Assembly: GCA_965113315.1 (NCBI GenBank)
Contig: OZ220375.1
Source of the DNA: Podarcis vaucheri
Lineage: Eukaryota
DNA: 64,000 nucleotides
Direction: 5' to 3' (one strand)
Shown: positions 46,001-58,000 of the stretch, piece by piece
Layout of the letters: each line of letters opens with the position of its first letter
Position numbering within the stretch: the stretch's first letter is position 1
Made by a program: the position numbers

Positions 46001-49000
46001 GTCCTCTGAATCCCATGCTTTTGAGGAAGCTATTTCAAATTAATGTCACTTTCCAGCTTTGTTCTCCCCCCCCTCCAGGGGAAGGCAGCCAGCATTTCTC
46101 TGTAGTTTAAAAACAAGTGTCTTTACTCACCTGCATGAACAAACAAAAGTTTTCACTGTACTTGATTGAATGGGAACCCTTTTCAGACTGAGGACTAAAT
46201 TCCCCTCTGAGGACTATATTCCAATGGTGGGTGTCTCGAGAGATGAAAGTGGACAGAGCACCTAATGACATTCTCAGATTTCAAGGGCACTTCCAGCCAC
46301 ACAAAAAACACATGGGTGTTTGTGAAGTGGAGTCAGTGAAGGCTATAACCTGGGGAGAGTTCAGAGGGCCAGAGAGGGAAGTTTGGGGCTGACTTACAGC
46401 TTCTGAGATCCACCTTCCCCTGACTGAAACCACATGCCAGATGCCTATTCTCAACCATCCCACAGTATAGTTCTTCTCTCCTCAGTCTCTTCTTTCTATT
46501 TTGTTTCCCCTAAGCACTGTTTCCCCTTTGTTTCCCCTTTACTTTCCCCTAAGCACTGAGTTATTCTCAGCCTATCCTGTATTAGATTGTAATGAACCTC
46601 ACTGTAATAAAAAGGAATACTAAAGAAAAAGCAAGCTCAGCCTGTGTTCTTACCCAGTGCCAGTTAGCTCATCTTAATTCTCAAAGCACTGATTAAATCC
46701 CAGTACCCAGGAATCTAGAGGGAGTCGGGGCACCCACAAACCCATGATATTTACTGTGTGTAATCTCAAAAAAAAATGCAAAGGGATCTGGAAGTGATTG
46801 AAGAGAACTAAAAATATTTTTTTATAAGTTATTTAAATGATTCCATGTGAACCAGTTGATCTATTTACTTGAAGCACTACTTTTCTCTCACTCTTCAACC
46901 AAAAAGGTCTCCCACAGCAGTTTCTGCCAGTGATAGCCTGGGGTCAGCACTGGAGTCCATAACCTAAAATACATGAGTAAAATGGGAAAGGGGATTTGGA
47001 GGAATGTAGATGCCAGGGAATAAATTTAAAGGTTTACCGCTGCTGCTGCTGCTGCTGCTGCCGCTACTACTACTACTACTACTACTACTAATTGCCAGCA
47101 TATGTAATGCTTCTAATAATACAAACACTAATAATGTGACTGAGAAAGAGGAGGGGCCAAGGTGAAACAAGACAGATCCTTGAGAACTCATATATTTATT
47201 GATTCAAGAATTTATTTGTCCCTCTCTTCACTTAAGCAAATCTGCCACACCAGTAATTAGTATTAAAAACATGACACTCCATGACACAAATGGAAAGGAA
47301 ATTTGGAGAGATGTAGAGAGGGAAATAGTCTTACTGTGGAACTTCAGACAGATTCTGTGATGGAAGCTCTTTGAAGAACACGTCATAAAATACATAATAG
47401 AGCAGAGAAACAATCCCACCATTGATGAGACCACTTGGATGGTACCACTCATGTGGAACAGGAAACGGATAATTCACAGGGCACCTCAAAGTATCTTCTT
47501 TGCAGTCGACAATACCAAGAGCCAAAAATACCGACCCCCAACATCCTGGCCTCCTAGCTTCTCTAAAAATACAGACCTTCCTGTGCCCATCAGTATCAAG
47601 TTGTGTGGCAAGTTCCCTCCCCCAAAGAAATGAAGGCACAGGACACGTTAGTTAAGGTTAATGGGCGTAAATGGCCACAACTTTATTGATTACAGAATTG
47701 AAGGTATTGGCCTTAGGCATTGGTTCCTATGACTACCCGGCATGGTAACCGGGAAGGGTTGAACACAAACCGTGGGGGTGTCCTGCTGGAGTACGCCAGC
47801 TAGGACCCCCACGGGTGTCACCGCTCGTGGGCGTGCCGGCGGCCCTCACCTTACTAGGTCTCGGACAAGGCAAACGCCCCCGGAGTCCTCTACCGGACTA
47901 CCCTTTTCTCGGGGGAAGGTGATGGCGTGTCCTTCCCCCCCATCCATTTGCATCACAATAGACCCCTGCCAATGCCTAACCGCCAAAACCGTGAAAGTTG
48001 TGACGATTTGCTACGAGGTAGGCGAAAAAACCAAAAGGCTGCAAAGTCGCCAACTTGGAAAAATTCCTACCAGGCCCCTTGCGGCGACCAACCGAAGTCC
48101 ATAGCAAGGTCAAGACTGCCTAACCTAAGGGTGGGTGGGCTGGGAAAAGCTTCTCTGCTGCCGAGGGGAAAGAGGGGGATCCCGGGGCGTGCCTGGCCTT
48201 AAATAGCCCAGGCCACGCCTCCCCAGCCCGCCTATTGGCGGGCAGGGGGAAGGCGGAGAGGCACGCCCCCGGGGATTCCCTGGCTCTCGCGGGGCTAAAC
48301 TCCAGCCCCGCGCTTGTGGGAGGGGCCAGCCCACAACACCCTCTCCTCCCGAGGCTCGGAAATGGCTTTGTGTGGCAAGTTCCCTCCCCCAAAGAAATGA
48401 AGACACAGGACACGTTAGTTAAGGTTAATGGGCGTAAATGGCCACAACTTTATTGATTACAGAATTGAAGGTATTGGCCTTAGGCATTGGTTCCTATGAC
48501 TACCCGGCATGGTAACCGGGAAGGGTTGAACACAAACCGTGGGGGTGTCCTGCTGGAGTACGCCAGCTAGGACCCCCACGGGTGTCACCGCTCGTGGGCG
48601 TGCCGGCGGCCCTCACCTTACTAGGTCTCGGACAAGGCAAACGCCCCCGGAGTCCTCTACCGGACTACCCTTTTCTCGGGGGAAGGTGATGGCGTGTCCT
48701 TCCCCCCCATCCATTTGCATCACAATAGACCCCTGCCAATGCCTAACCGCCAAAACCGTGAAAGTTGTGACGATTTGCTACGAGGTAGGCGAAAAAACCA
48801 AAAGGCTGCAAAGTCGCCAACTTGGAAAAATTCCTACCAGGCCCCTTGCGGCGACCAACCGAAGTCCATAGCAAGGTCAAGACTGCCTAACCTAAGGGTG
48901 GGTGGGCTGGGAAAAGCTTCTCTGCTGCCGAGGGGAAAGAGGGGGATCCCGGGGCGTGCCTGGCCTTAAATAGCCCAGGCCACGCCTCCCCAGCCCGCCT

Positions 49001-55000: not shown

Positions 55001-58000
55001 AAAAAAAAAAAAAAACCAACTATTTAACTAATACTCTTCTTGTATTGCCAGAAATCTCTTACAATGCATAAACATGAACTGTTGTGTGACTAGCCTGGCT
55101 GCTAAAGGAGATATAACGCTGTAAAATAAGGTCTCCAAATCGCAGGCTGCAATAACAACTCCTGCCGCTAGGTGGCAGTGTTCCCTAGGAATTAGCAGAA
55201 AACAAACCCTCGGCTGCAGACAGAAAGGCAGTTCAATCACCAGAATATAAAGCAGCAAAAACTACTGAAAAACGGGCAATAACAGAAGGAAAAGCAACTA
55301 AATAATCTCTAAATAACAGAAGGAAAAGCGGAGATAAAAGTTAAATGGCCCTACTCAAAATGGCTGCCGGGACGCACCACGGCGACCTTACCAAGATGGC
55401 GGCCGGGAGGGAGATGCCCTCAGTCAAACTGGCGTCCCTCAACAATTATGGCCCTAAGTAACCAAACGTCCAGAAAGCGGTATTAAATGCAGGTACAACA
55501 ACAACCACTAAATATCAGAGGCAGAAACGGAGAAAACAATAAAATGTCACACTCAAAATGGCCGCCGCTGGAATGCCACGTGGACCTTCCCAAGATGGCG
55601 GCCGCTGTGACCTTCCTCCCTTACACAATTTCTGCTTCGTTTGCCCTTAAATATGGCGCCTGCCTCTCCTTAGCAGACTCCCTTGCCAAAGATGGCTGCC
55701 GCGACTTCAATCACCCCCCCCCCCACAAATACAGACAGCTGAAGAAACCACAGAAAAAACACAGCGATTTCGGCAAAATCAGCAGGTAAAATCGGAGGCA
55801 GCACGGGAGGGCTAGTGGCAAGGCACAGCGGCAGCGAAGTGAGAGGGGAGAGGAGAGGGGAGGGTTATGAGCAGAGGAAAGGCTACGGAGATGCAGCGCC
55901 ACGGGGATGGGACGGCAGCAGTACAGCAGAAATAGGCAGAATTAAAGCGACCAAGTTGTGGAACCAGCAGAATAAAGCAGGCAATCGCCGCGCAGGGGAA
56001 AATTCGGTCCTGTGGCCGCAGTGATACTATACCCGTCTTCTTTGCTGGTGTTCCGGTCTGAGCTGAAGGAAGCACCCTGCTCTGGACGGATTTTTGTGCA
56101 GGTAGAGTAGGAAGGTAAGGAAAAAGAAAGCTTCTCTGCTGCCGAGGGGAAAGAGGGGGATCCCGGGGCGTGCCTGGCCTTAAATAGCCCAGGCCACGCC
56201 TCCCCAGCCCGCCTATTGGCGGGCAGGGGGAAGGCGGAGAGGCACGCCCCCGGGGATTCCCTGGCTCTCGCGGGGCTAAACTCCAGCCCCGCGCTTGTGG
56301 GAGGGGCCAGCCCACAACACCCTCTCCTCCCGAGGCTCGGAAATGGCTTTATCGTCTTGAGCATGATACTATGAGTGATGCTTGGCCTTGCCAACTCAGT
56401 TCTAAAACAGAGTTCTGTGAGCTGTTTCTGATAGTCAAAAGATTACAAATGAAACAGTAGATGAGATTGCCAACACTCTGATTTAGGTCTGGCAAAAAAG
56501 TCAGAAATTAAACTGATGAAGTATTGTTCATCTTTTGCCCCTATTCCCAGTTCTCCATGGCACCTGGTATTATTTATAATGGTTTCCAGGCTTGTATTTT
56601 TGACATCCATAGTGACAGTGCTTAAGTGTAGTGTTTAAGAGTGGTGGACTCGTAATTTGATGAACCGGGTTTGCTTCCCTGCACCTCCACATGCAGCTGC
56701 TGGGTGACCTTGGGCTAGACACACTTCTCTGAAGTCTCTCGGCCTCACTTACCTCACAGAGTGTTTGTTGTAGGGGAGGAAGGGAAAAGAGATTGTTAGC
56801 CGCTTTCAGACTCCTTAAGGGGAGTGAAAGGCAGGATATCAAGTCCAAACTCCTCCTCCTCCTCCTCTTCTTCCTCTTCCTCTTCCTTCTAAGAAACCTC
56901 TATGGCTGTCAGGCTTCAGGGAATTAGCTTCTTCCCACTGTGGTGGCAGTAGATAAGCAGAACAAAGGAAAGGAGTCTTCTTACCAGTTAGAAACTTTAA
57001 TAATCACAGCGAGAGAACAAAGAACAAACTTCCTAGAAATGGCGGTGCTCCCAATTAAGTTCACCAACTCTCCCATCCCTTATTAATCTACATCTTCTAA
57101 TCTGAGTTTGGAACTGCTGTGTTTTCTATTCTGCCACTTTCTGAGCTCTCTGGGACTTTGGGGAAGGGGAGGTAGATACTCTCCAGAAACTGTAAATCTG
57201 TTAACCCTCTCTCTTCCAGTGTTTCTTCTCGTAGTTGTTCCCCATCCAGTATTTCCCAGCTTCTGCCTTCTGAACTATATCCTTCTGCAAACCACTGTTC
57301 CAAATCTTTACTGTCCTCCTGCTCCTGTGAAGATTCAGGATTTGGATCAGGAGCTCCTGTGAAGATTCAGGATCCAGATCAGGAGGGGGAGGCTCCCACC
57401 ATTCCTCCTCAGTGCAGCCCTCCTCAGAACGGTCCCTGATACTGCATTTGATTATGGTGAACAAATCATGGTGATTTGGATGATTGCAGGGAGAGATAAT
57501 AACTTTCTCAGATGTTTAGCTCAGAGTGGCACTTTTGGCAACCAAGATGCTGGTGCTTGTGTGTTTACTCTAAATTGACTACGTTTCTGCTCCCTTATGG
57601 CACAAAAAATGGCAATTGGTTTTCTGTTTTCCCATGTGAGTCAATGCCAATCAAAGTGAAGCCATTTTCTTTGGAGTTGCAAAACGTAGCAAATTCAAAT
57701 ACAATGGAATCAGTTTAAGACAAAGGTATCACTCAGTTTTTCTCAATATTTGCTCCCTATTGTCCAGCTCAGGCCTCAGCACAATGGTGTAACACTTCAG
57801 GGCAAAGACAATCCCTCCCTCAAAAGACTGCCACTCTGGAGACATTCTTAGTCATGGGCTGTATACTAAAACCCTTAATATAGAAAAAATCAATAAGATA
57901 ATAACAAAAGTATTACTCAGTTCTTTCTCATTATTTGCTCCCTATTGTTCAGCTCAGGCCTCAGCACAATGATGTAGCATTTACGGGCAAAAATGCAGCC

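What the first reader, a model, noticed from the sequence alone, without database searches (positions are those of the whole stretch)
47603..56350. Intact, very young Ngaro-type YR retrotransposon with four open ORFs inside a V2R cluster
Seen: gag, RT/RNase H, tyrosine recombinase and SGNH hydrolase are all uninterrupted, catalytic residues are present, the sequence is CpG-rich, and the repeat copies are essentially identical. Established: Ngaro elements have split direct repeats and lack the methyltransferase of DIRS1 elements, and some vertebrate Ngaro families carry a hydrolase ORF. Inference: this is a recent, possibly active family, perhaps an uncatalogued lizard subfamily.
[Added by the scan's program, not by the reader: the finding's places include an assembly gap (unread letters, written N; its length is only estimated) at 54351 to 54528. 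Whether the letters on both sides are continuous or in frame is not known: test that first.]
Basis: partly seen in the sequence, partly recalled or inferred. Interest (0 to 1): 0.7.

Follow-up and report, generated by a model that had tools for sequence, protein, structure and literature searches.

The report
Young Ngaro-type retrotransposon in lizard DNA
This is a recently inserted copy of a known kind of jumping gene (a Ngaro-type retrotransposon with an extra esterase gene) lying between two vomeronasal receptor genes of a lizard; it is well preserved but ordinary for its kind.

Summary
On the minus strand, 47601-56350 carries four open, co-directional ORFs: a gag-position protein, RT/RNase H, a tyrosine recombinase and an SGNH hydrolase. 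No ORF has a stop or frameshift, and the catalytic residues are those conserved in relatives. Split direct repeats frame the ORFs: A at the 5' end, and B-A-B after the last ORF. No methyltransferase and no inverted terminal repeats were found, so the structure is Ngaro-like, not DIRS1 or PAT.

A paralogous empty site in the same window fixes both ends. CpG observed/expected is 0.67 in the element and 0.22 in the rest of the window. Repeat copies differ by 1 base in 767. All this fits a recent insertion.

Three points qualify "intact":
- The 178-N gap lies in the 5' untranslated part, outside all ORFs, and its content is unknown.
- The 3' repeat array has one A-B unit more than the canonical pattern. 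This may be real or an assembly effect.
- ORF1 is "gag" by position only.

The nearest proteins are lacertid (Podarcis muralis), at 93% (recombinase), 77% (RT) and 65% (hydrolase). Activity, copy number and catalogue status could not be tested. It is a new member of a known kind, of modest interest.

The parts
47601..56350 (-). Whole inserted element (8750 positions including 178 N)
   Evidence: The ends are set by the repeats. A paralogous empty site agrees: flanks 47310-47593 and 56356-56579 match the contiguous stretch 7031..6595 at 72-77%. CpG o/e steps from 0.10-0.21 in the flanks to 0.67 inside.
56127..56350 (-). Repeat A1 (5' terminal copy, 224 nt, GC 0.68); holds one TATA-like heptamer in the sense strand
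   Evidence: 100% identical to 48913-49136 and 48146-48369. Motif.
54254..56126 (-). 5' untranslated part. It contains an AT-rich stretch on both sides of the gap, two diverged internal duplications (about 199 and 231 nt apart) and a cluster of six AAGATGGCGGCCG-like motifs on the + strand at 55357-55701.
   Evidence: No Pfam hit in the 4 scanned ORFs of at least 80 aa that overlap this stretch. No Rfam or tRNA match.
54351..54528 (.). Assembly gap (178 N), left unfilled
   Evidence: It is the only N run in the window. It lies outside all four ORFs, with two in-frame stops between the ORF1 start and the gap.
52733..54253 (-). ORF1, 506 aa, in the gag position. The N-terminal half is low-complexity. 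The conserved C-terminal domain (about residues 285-500) is a helical bundle followed by a Cys/His knuckle.
   Evidence: No Pfam family. Fold matches at E<=0.001: 0 of 17 in PDB and 0 of 142 in BFVD.
51061..52914 (-). ORF2, 617 aa, reverse transcriptase plus RNase H. It overlaps ORF1 by 182 nt in another frame, and its first ATG is at codon 88.
   Evidence: RVT_1 at E 4e-14. 298 relatives at E<=1e-10. Conserved residues. The ORF ends where 14 relatives end.
50171..51061 (-). ORF3, 296 aa, tyrosine recombinase. Its ATG shares one base with the ORF2 stop codon.
   Evidence: Weak Pfam Phage_int_SAM_4 and Phage_integrase hits. 678 relatives at E<=1e-5, the best 93% identical. Six catalytic-type residues kept in 16 of 16.
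49547..50161 (-). ORF4, 204 aa, SGNH/GDSL-type hydrolase, starting 9 nt after the ORF3 stop
   Evidence: 15 of 19 aligned members hit PF13472; the window copy alone scores E 0.016. The profile hits the ZfL2-1 ORF1p esterase 4c1b at E 3e-5. The model has pLDDT 91.2. 168 PDB fold matches at E<=0.001; the named entries among those listed are overwhelmingly SGNH/GDSL-type esterases and acylhydrolases.
49135..49519 (-). Repeat B1 (inner copy, 385 nt), starting 27 nt after the ORF4 stop; holds one AATAAA in the sense strand
48913..49136 (-). Repeat A2 (inner copy). The B1|A2 junction equals the two element ends joined with a 2-nt overlap.
48753..48912 (-). 160-nt spacer between A2 and B2 (absent after A1)
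48368..48752 (-). Repeat B2
47601..48369 (-). Extra unit: A3 (48146-48369), spacer (47986-48145) and terminal B3 (47601-47985). B3 differs by 1 base from B1 and B2.
47330..47593 (-). Neighbour: orphan relic of a V2R first coding exon without a start codon, directly 3' of the element

Best explanation
This is one recently inserted copy of a Ngaro-like tyrosine-recombinase retrotransposon (order DIRS) of the vertebrate type that carries a fourth, SGNH-hydrolase ORF. It sits in the spacer between two convergent V2R genes of a lizard.

Shown:
- Four open ORFs in the order gag-position protein, RT/RNase H, recombinase, hydrolase.
- Repeats in the order A ... B-A-(spacer)-B-A-(spacer)-B.
- Sharp ends defined by a paralogous empty site, with no sizeable target-site duplication.
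- An inner B|A junction that equals the two ends fused over 2 shared bases.

Inferred, from the model for DIRS/Ngaro elements quoted in PMC7192593 and PMC6681497:
1. RNA starts inside A1 (a TATA-like motif lies there) and ends inside a B copy (each holds AATAAA about 80-90 nt before its end). The RNA therefore lacks both outermost tips.
2. RT/RNase H copies it into cDNA.
3. The inner B|A junction serves as the template that restores and brings together the two tips, giving a circular DNA.
4. The recombinase exchanges strands between that junction and a target at a very short shared sequence (here 2 nt), leaving no duplication.

The hydrolase is probably an esterase acting on a lipid or other carboxyl ester, by likeness to the LINE ORF1p esterase. 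Its role in the cycle is unknown. The extra A-B unit is best read as a duplication between the direct repeats, either during reverse transcription or by unequal exchange after insertion.
For: Domains and residues.

No other domain: 0 Pfam families in the 14 other ORFs of at least 80 aa that were scanned. ORF2 ends with RNase H at the same point as 14 relatives, and ORF3 starts on the ORF2 stop.

Repeat order and identity. The only inverted repeat of at least 30 nt in 45000-59000 is the pair of V2R exons outside the element.

Empty-site paralog.

Youth: CpG o/e 0.67 against 0.22. Repeat differences are 1 of 767, 0 of 385 and 0 of 224. There are 0 breaks in about 4.7 kb of coding sequence.

Relatives: they are lizard and amphibian proteins; the Xenopus proteins are 46-50% identical in RT.

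Literature passages:
- Ngaro = A1 ... B1 A2 B2, no methyltransferase, and an SGNH ORF after the recombinase in amphibians. Xenopus DIRS-53_XT has four ORFs, with A 236 bp and B 152 bp at 100% identity (PMC9210276).
- The inner repeats lie downstream of the recombinase (PMC4157794).
- The repeats should be near-identical at insertion (PMC6681497).
- A short shared oligonucleotide lies at the circle junction and the target (PMC7192593).

Motifs.
Against: - No second copy could be examined, so nothing shows that the family is mobile now or that this 5' untranslated part is the family's normal one.
- The gap hides an unknown stretch.
- The AT-rich part around the gap (GC 0.35-0.37, with a 15-A run on the + strand) could be foreign. 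Its CpG o/e of 0.68 is that of the element, though, and no direct repeat of at least 7 nt flanks it.
- The 3' array has one unit more than the canonical pattern, and a 160-nt spacer lies between A and B.
- The best protein matches are only 93% (recombinase), 77% (RT; 85% over 46% of the length), 69% (ORF1) and 65% (hydrolase), so no near-identical sister copy is seen among the proteins on hand.
- ORF2 has no ATG before codon 88, and how it is expressed is unknown.
- ORF1 has no demonstrable likeness to any capsid protein.
- No RT/recombinase tree with named DIRS1, PAT and Ngaro references could be built.
- The promoter and poly(A) motifs are short and could be chance.
Confidence: 0.85

Rival explanations
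1. Part of the picture is an assembly effect. The third 767-nt unit may be an over-expansion of an identical tandem repeat. Alternatively, the two contigs joined at the gap may come from different copies of the family.
For: A gap inside a repeat-family member is what assemblers leave when many near-identical copies exist (inference). The tandem units are 99.9-100% identical. The canonical pattern in the literature has a single B-A-B.
Against: The outer flanks of the two contigs are adjacent and co-oriented in a paralogous empty site, so both ends belong to one insertion locus. CpG o/e and composition are alike on both sides of the gap. The terminal B copy carries 1 difference from the two inner ones, so the copies were not simply cloned by the assembler.
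Confidence: 0.2
2. The copy is defective. The AT-rich stretch around the gap (about 54290-55016) would be a nested insertion of another repeat into the 5' untranslated part, so the element is not intact despite its open ORFs.
For: GC drops from about 0.53 to 0.35-0.37. A run of 15 A lies on the + strand at 55001-55015, opposite to the sense of the element.
Against: CpG o/e is 0.68 there against 0.22 in host DNA. No flanking direct repeat of at least 7 nt was found. There is no tRNA-like or Rfam match and no similar sequence elsewhere in the 64-kb window.
Confidence: 0.2
3. The insertion is old, and its repeats have been kept identical by gene conversion. The open ORFs would be kept by selection on a domesticated gene set, since NCBI names relatives 'integrase/recombinase xerD homolog'.
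For: Tandem and dispersed repeats a few kb apart can convert each other (general knowledge). Relatives are annotated as host genes.
Against: CpG o/e is three times the host level over all 8.6 kb, non-coding parts included. The complete transposon architecture with its ends is present. Many diverged paralogs per lizard genome fit a repeat family, not a single host gene.
Confidence: 0.05
4. It belongs to the DIRS1-like or PAT-like groups rather than to Ngaro.
For: No tree with named references was built. Published trees show that structural classes are not always monophyletic (PMC4157794 and PMC6681497).
Against: There is no methyltransferase domain and no room for one. There are no inverted terminal repeats. 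No B copy lies at the 5' end. A hydrolase ORF follows the recombinase, as in amphibian Ngaro.
Confidence: 0.03

Closest known systems
[quoted passage not shown]
   Same: Both have four ORFs (gag-position, RT/RNase H, recombinase, SGNH hydrolase) and split direct repeats with identical copies. A is of similar size (236 bp there, 224 nt here). Neither has a methyltransferase.
   Different: B is 152 bp there and 385 nt here. Here a 160-nt spacer lies between A and B, there is one extra A-B unit, and the 5' untranslated part is about 1.9 kb. No sequence of these families was on hand. Unnamed Xenopus proteins are 46-50% identical to ORF2, but I cannot say that they are those families.
Ngaro1 of zebrafish, the founding member (Goodwin and Poulter 2004; not read, cited; details recalled)
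   Same: It defines the architecture A1 ... B1 A2 B2 without a methyltransferase.
   Different: It is a fish element. No sequence was available for comparison.
Unnamed lacertid copies annotated by NCBI as 'integrase/recombinase xerD homolog' or 'uncharacterized protein' in Podarcis muralis, Zootoca vivipara and Lacerta agilis
   Same: They have the same protein families. The best identities are 93% (recombinase, P0139), 77% (RT/RNase H, P0023) and 62-65% (hydrolase).
   Different: None is near-identical. Several sub-lineages appear (recombinase identities of 93, 82, 78, 75, 66 and 64%). Their DNA, repeats and context could not be seen.
Esterase domain of ZfL2-1 ORF1p, a zebrafish LINE (PDB 4c1b; PMC3905857, passages read)
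   Same: It is the best solved-structure relative of the ORF4 profile by sequence (E 3e-5) and an SGNH fold encoded by a transposon. That paper shows weak esterase activity and binding of acidic phospholipids.
   Different: There it is a domain of a LINE ORF1 protein; here it is a separate last ORF of a recombinase retrotransposon. The fold match to 4c1b itself is poor (TM 0.43-0.51), because that crystal shows two half-domains.
DIRS-1 of Dictyostelium (PMC7192593; passages read)
   Same: It uses the same logic: an internal sequence that equals the joined ends is needed to restore a full copy from a shorter transcript, and integration is by a tyrosine recombinase.
   Different: DIRS-1 has inverted terminal repeats, an internal complementary region and a methyltransferase. 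None of these is present here.

Membership tests
Ngaro-like (order DIRS) | Encodes a tyrosine recombinase instead of a DDE integrase | tested here: met
   ORF3 has 678 relatives at E<=1e-5. R145, K182, H257, R260, W283 and Y291 are kept in 16 of 16. No integrase or protease family was found in any of the 18 ORFs scanned.
Ngaro-like (order DIRS) | RT plus RNase H ORF without a methyltransferase domain | tested here: met
   RVT_1 at E 4e-14. The RNase H acidic residues are conserved. ORF2 ends at the same point as 14 relatives, and ORF3 begins on its stop codon. No Pfam family was found in the other 14 ORFs.
Ngaro-like (order DIRS) | Split direct repeats A1 ... B1 A2 B2, with the inner copies downstream of the recombinase | tested here: met
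   The order is A1 at the 5' end, then B1-A2-spacer-B2 after ORF4, then one extra A3-spacer-B3. The pattern is met, with one unit more than canonical.
Ngaro-like (order DIRS) | RT/RNase H (or recombinase) groups with named Ngaro references in a tree | not testable with these tools
   No Repbase or Dfam library, and no named Ngaro, DIRS1 or PAT sequence, could be fetched.
Ngaro-like, vertebrate hydrolase-bearing subset | Extra ORF with an SGNH hydrolase after the recombinase | tested here: met
DIRS1-like | Inverted terminal repeats plus an internal complementary region | tested here: not met
   No inverted repeat of at least 30 nt lies within the element. The only pair found in 45000-59000 is the two V2R exons outside it.
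DIRS1-like / PAT-like | Methyltransferase domain after RNase H | tested here: not met
PAT-like | Split direct repeats in the order A1-B1 ... A2-B2 | tested here: not met
   The sequence next to A1 has no similarity to B or to the spacer.
LTR retrotransposon / endogenous retrovirus | Two identical long terminal repeats, a protease and a DDE integrase, and a target-site duplication | tested here: not met
   The terminal sequences differ (A at the 5' end, B at the 3' end). No such domains were found. No sizeable duplication lies at the ends.
SGNH/GDSL hydrolases (ORF4) | Flavodoxin-like fold with Ser, Gly, Asn and His in blocks I, II, III and V | tested here: met
   The model has pLDDT 91.2. There are 168 PDB fold matches at E<=0.001 with TM up to 0.74. 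S26, G59, N89, D178 and H181 are present and conserved. The assignment of residues to blocks is from general knowledge.
SGNH/GDSL hydrolases (ORF4) | Hydrolytic activity | not tested
Retroviral-type Gag (ORF1) | Capsid or nucleocapsid fold, or sequence likeness | tested here: not met
   No Pfam family. PDB sequence hits are only weak CCCH-finger ones at E 0.1. Fold matches at E<=0.001 are 0 of 17 in PDB and 0 of 142 in BFVD. A Cys/His knuckle is present.

The most novel reading that the evidence does not exclude
The 2.5-unit 3' array is real and is a trace of how Ngaro elements copy themselves: an extra round of template switching between the direct B (or A) copies during reverse transcription. 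The family would also still be moving in a lacertid lizard. Together these would make it a natural amniote case in which variants of the repeat array record the replication mechanism, which for Ngaro elements is so far only a model.
Probability: 0.2. Interest if true: 0.5.

Novelty: new member of a known kind. Interest (0 to 1): 0.3.

Why it matters
Tyrosine-recombinase retrotransposons are absent from birds and mammals (PMC4350176, passage), and their replication is known mainly from a model and from one amoeba element. A nearly undecayed amniote copy would be a good descriptive reference for three reasons: its ends are fixed by an empty-site paralog, its junction overlap is exact, and its 3' array is variant. 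Such a reference would help annotate the many lizard genes now labelled 'xerD homolog' or 'uncharacterized'. It would also help in asking whether such elements shape V2R clusters. In itself the copy is a typical member of its kind.

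Tried and rejected
- Single-sequence searches of ORF4 gave nothing convincing: 0 Pfam families at E<=0.01 and only chance-level PDB hits. The assignment needed the alignment of relatives, the profile and the fold.
- ORF1 had no Pfam family, no PDB sequence relative better than E 0.1, and no fold match in PDB or BFVD. The Atlas look-alikes are unnamed clusters from Basidiomycota and Mollusca, a lead only.
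- Tandem Repeats Finder missed the 767-nt array because its longest period is 500.
- The bacterial-type promoter and terminator scan is meaningless for an animal genome and is not used.
- The total count of the AAGATGGCGGCCG-like motif in the window is not above chance: 10 found, and 19 of 100 shuffles reached 10. Only its clustering is notable.
- A nested SINE-type insertion was looked for around the gap. No tRNA-like or Rfam match and no flanking direct repeat were found, so it is neither shown nor excluded.
- A first literature search was too loose. The narrower one listed 15 papers holding both 'Ngaro' and 'lizard', none with both in the title or abstract. I read passages of one of them.
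- DIRS1, PAT and LTR readings were rejected on structure (see the membership rows).

Full report
**1. What is there**

The element lies on the minus strand. Four ORFs run head to tail:

| ORF | Coordinates | Length |
|---|---|---|
| ORF1 | 54253..52733 | 506 aa |
| ORF2 | 52914..51061 | 617 aa |
| ORF3 | 51061..50171 | 296 aa |
| ORF4 | 50161..49547 | 204 aa |

- None is interrupted: 0 stops and 0 frameshifts were counted.
- ORF1 and ORF2 overlap by 182 nt in different frames, and the first ATG of ORF2 is codon 88.
- The ORF3 ATG shares a base with the ORF2 stop. ORF4 starts 9 nt after the ORF3 stop.

**2. The gap, tested first**

- The only N run of the window is 54351-54528, 178 N.
- It lies in the stretch between the 5' repeat and the ORF1 start. 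Two in-frame stops separate the ORF1 ATG from the gap. No reading frame crosses it, so the question of frame does not arise.
- Continuity of the letters cannot be shown, and I did not try to fill it.
- The two scaffold pieces do belong to one insertion locus. The left flank (47310-47593) and the right flank (56356-56579) match one contiguous stretch elsewhere in the window (7031 down to 6595) at 77% and 72% identity. Only 8 bases lie between the two matches there.
- Both sides of the gap are AT-rich (GC 0.37 and 0.35). Their CpG observed/expected values are 0.80 and 0.68, those of the element and not of host DNA.
- What the gap hides, and its true length, stay unknown. "Intact" therefore cannot be claimed for the 5' untranslated part.

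**3. Repeats**

- A 224-nt sequence (A) occurs three times at 100% identity: 56127-56350, 48913-49136 and 48146-48369.
- After ORF4 there is a tandem array, 47601-49519, of 2.5 units of 767 nt. Units 1 and 2 differ at 1 of 767 positions. Unit 2 and the partial unit 3 differ at 0 of 385.
- In the sense of the element the order is: A1, 5' untranslated part, ORF1-4, 27 nt, B1 (385 nt), A2, a 160-nt spacer, B2, A3, spacer, B3.
- This is the Ngaro pattern A1 ... B1 A2 B2 (PMC9210276 and PMC3783388, passages) with two departures: a spacer between A and B, and one extra A-B unit.
- The inner B|A junction is exactly the right end and the left end of the element fused with 2 shared bases.
- No inverted repeat of at least 30 nt lies inside the element.

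**4. Proteins**

ORF2 (RT/RNase H):
- It hits RVT_1 at E 4e-14 and has 298 relatives at E<=1e-10 among 8000 scored candidates.
- D239, YLDD305-308, D470, E507 and D582 are kept in 15 of 15 aligned sequences, and D532 in 14 of 15.
- It ends where 14 relatives end, so there is no room for a methyltransferase.

ORF3 (recombinase):
- It has only sub-threshold Pfam hits to phage-integrase models and chance-level hits to Cre in the PDB.
- It has 678 relatives at E<=1e-5.
- R145, K182, H257, R260, W283 and Y291 are kept in 16 of 16, including sea-urchin, starfish and scallop proteins. Which residue plays which catalytic part is general knowledge of the family, not a result here.

ORF4 (hydrolase):
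- Alone it was not recognisable: PF13472 scored E 0.016.
- Of 19 aligned members, 15 hit PF13472.
- The profile finds the esterase of the zebrafish LINE ZfL2-1 (4c1b) at E 3e-5.
- The model is confident, at pLDDT 91.2. It has 168 PDB fold matches at E<=0.001, and the named entries among those listed are overwhelmingly SGNH/GDSL-type enzymes.
- S26, G59, N89, D178 and H181 are present.

ORF1 (gag-position protein):
- It has a low-complexity N-terminal half and a widely conserved C-terminal domain. 2564 representative clusters match at E<=0.001, mostly over residues 285-500.
- The domain is modelled as four long helices followed by a Cys/His knuckle.
- It has no Pfam family and no fold match at E<=0.001 in PDB (0 of 17) or BFVD (0 of 142). 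"gag" is therefore a name by position, as the literature also says (PMC6681497).

The 14 other ORFs of at least 80 aa that were scanned hit nothing. There is no Rfam family and no tRNA in 47000-57000.

**5. Surroundings**

- Scanned exon by exon, the window holds six 7tm_3 exons and six ANF_receptor pieces among 16 ORFs tested. This is a V2R cluster. I built no joined gene model; that step was left out.
- The element lies between two convergent V2R genes, whose last exons are 44876-45772 (+) and 57920-58855 (-).
- Directly 3' of the element lies an orphan relic of a V2R first coding exon (47330-47593, minus strand). It has lost its start codon.
- In the intact paralog the equivalent of the insertion point is 41-48 nt upstream of the ATG.
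- No functional gene is visibly disrupted.

**6. Age**

- CpG observed/expected is 0.67 over the element, with every segment 0.57-0.80 and non-coding parts included, against 0.22 in the remaining 55,250 bases. The step is sharp at both ends.
- The repeats are almost identical (section 3). The published model implies that they are near-identical at insertion (PMC6681497).
- About 4.7 kb of coding sequence has no break.
- Inference: with a substitution rate of the order of 1e-9 per site per year (a figure I recall; it comes from no call), one difference in roughly 1.4 kb of redundant repeat means well under a few million years.
- Conversion between copies, or a duplication after insertion, would blur this clock. 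The CpG evidence does not depend on it.

**7. How it most likely works**

The four shown facts and the four inferred steps are listed under Best explanation. In short, the shown facts are the ORF order, the repeat order, the sharp ends and the junction overlap. The inferred cycle follows the DIRS/Ngaro model (passages in PMC7192593, and PMC6681497): an RNA lacking both outermost tips, reverse transcription, restoration of the tips from the inner B|A junction to give a circle, and recombinase-mediated integration at a very short shared sequence (2 nt here).

- Motif leads: each A copy has one TATA-like heptamer, and each B copy has one AATAAA about 82-87 nt before its end. These are short motifs and only leads.
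- The hydrolase is probably an esterase. For the LINE esterase, weak activity and binding of acidic phospholipids are shown (PMC3905857). Its role in this element is unknown.
- The extra A-B unit is best explained by a duplication between direct repeats, during reverse transcription or by unequal exchange. An assembly effect is the main rival.

**8. Comparison with what is known**

- Four-ORF Ngaro-like families with an SGNH ORF are described from Xenopus (PMC9210276). Ngaro elements with a hydrolase are mentioned in PMC7192593.
- The nearest proteins on hand are lacertid (Podarcis muralis, Zootoca, Lacerta). Identities are 93% for the recombinase, up to 77% for RT/RNase H (85% over 46% of its length), 69% for ORF1 and 65% for the hydrolase.
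- Next come geckos, anoles and cordylids at 43-60%, then frogs at 46-50%.
- The host is thus most likely a lacertid or a near relative. Nothing in the window was taken for human.
- The family has several old sub-lineages in lacertids.

**9. What stayed unchecked**

- No host genome, Repbase or Dfam was on hand.
- Not tested as a result: copy number, other copies' 5' parts and 3' arrays, insertion polymorphism, catalogue status, and a tree with named references.
- I opened no supplementary files. Supplementary Tables S1 and S2 of PMC9210276 (ORF and repeat details of the Xenopus families) could sharpen the comparison.
- Of all papers cited I saw only search listings and the passages returned by term look-ups. 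Goodwin and Poulter 2004 and Poulter and Butler 2015 I did not see at all.

**10. Verdict**

It is unproven on "intact" (gap, variant array), on activity and on novelty of the subfamily. This is a well-preserved new member of a known kind.

Noticed in passing
window 47330-47593 (minus strand); paralogs at 6843-7098, about 16701-16866, 27271-27360, 36009-36106: An orphan, inverted copy of a V2R first coding exon lies between two convergent V2R genes. It has lost its start codon. The element sits 41-48 nt upstream of where the ATG is in the intact paralog.
   Followed up: partly
window 55357-55701 (+ strand, i.e. antisense to the element): Six AAGATGGCGGCCG-like motifs (2 exact, 1 with one mismatch) lie within 345 nt of the 5' untranslated part, inside a diverged duplication about 199 nt apart (55301-55405 against 55500-55604, 77%). 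From memory the motif resembles the binding site of the factor YY1; no tool tested that.
   Followed up: partly
window 54638-54670 and 54869-54901, next to the gap: There is a diverged direct repeat 231 nt apart in the AT-rich stretch just right of the gap. The gap may therefore sit in a short tandem array. It was not pursued, because the gap was not to be filled.
   Followed up: no
window 3404-4003 (minus strand): A 200-aa ORF matches reverse transcriptase RVT_1 at E 1e-17. It is a fragment of another retroelement, unrelated in position to the finding.
   Followed up: no
window 628-1566, 13719-14633, 22452-23390, 32612-33559, 44876-45772 (+) and 57920-58855 (-): Six open 7tm_3 last exons show at least five V2R genes in tandem on the + strand and one convergent on the - strand. 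The 763-nt inverted repeat 45000-45762 / 57927-58689 (84%) is simply the two convergent last exons.
   Followed up: partly
window 26086-26745 (minus strand) and 13161-13643 (minus strand): ORFs of 220 and 161 aa have no Pfam family. They may be chance ORFs or other repeats.
   Followed up: no
window 57321-57384 and 57739-57991: Short direct repeats lie just right of the element: a 32-nt tandem pair at 91%, and a 68-nt pair 185 nt apart at 90%.
   Followed up: no
ORF4, window 49547-50161: By sequence profile, the closest solved structure is the esterase of a LINE ORF1 protein (4c1b) rather than any cellular enzyme. This hints that the hydrolase modules of Ngaro elements and of CR1/L2-type LINEs share an origin.
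   Followed up: partly
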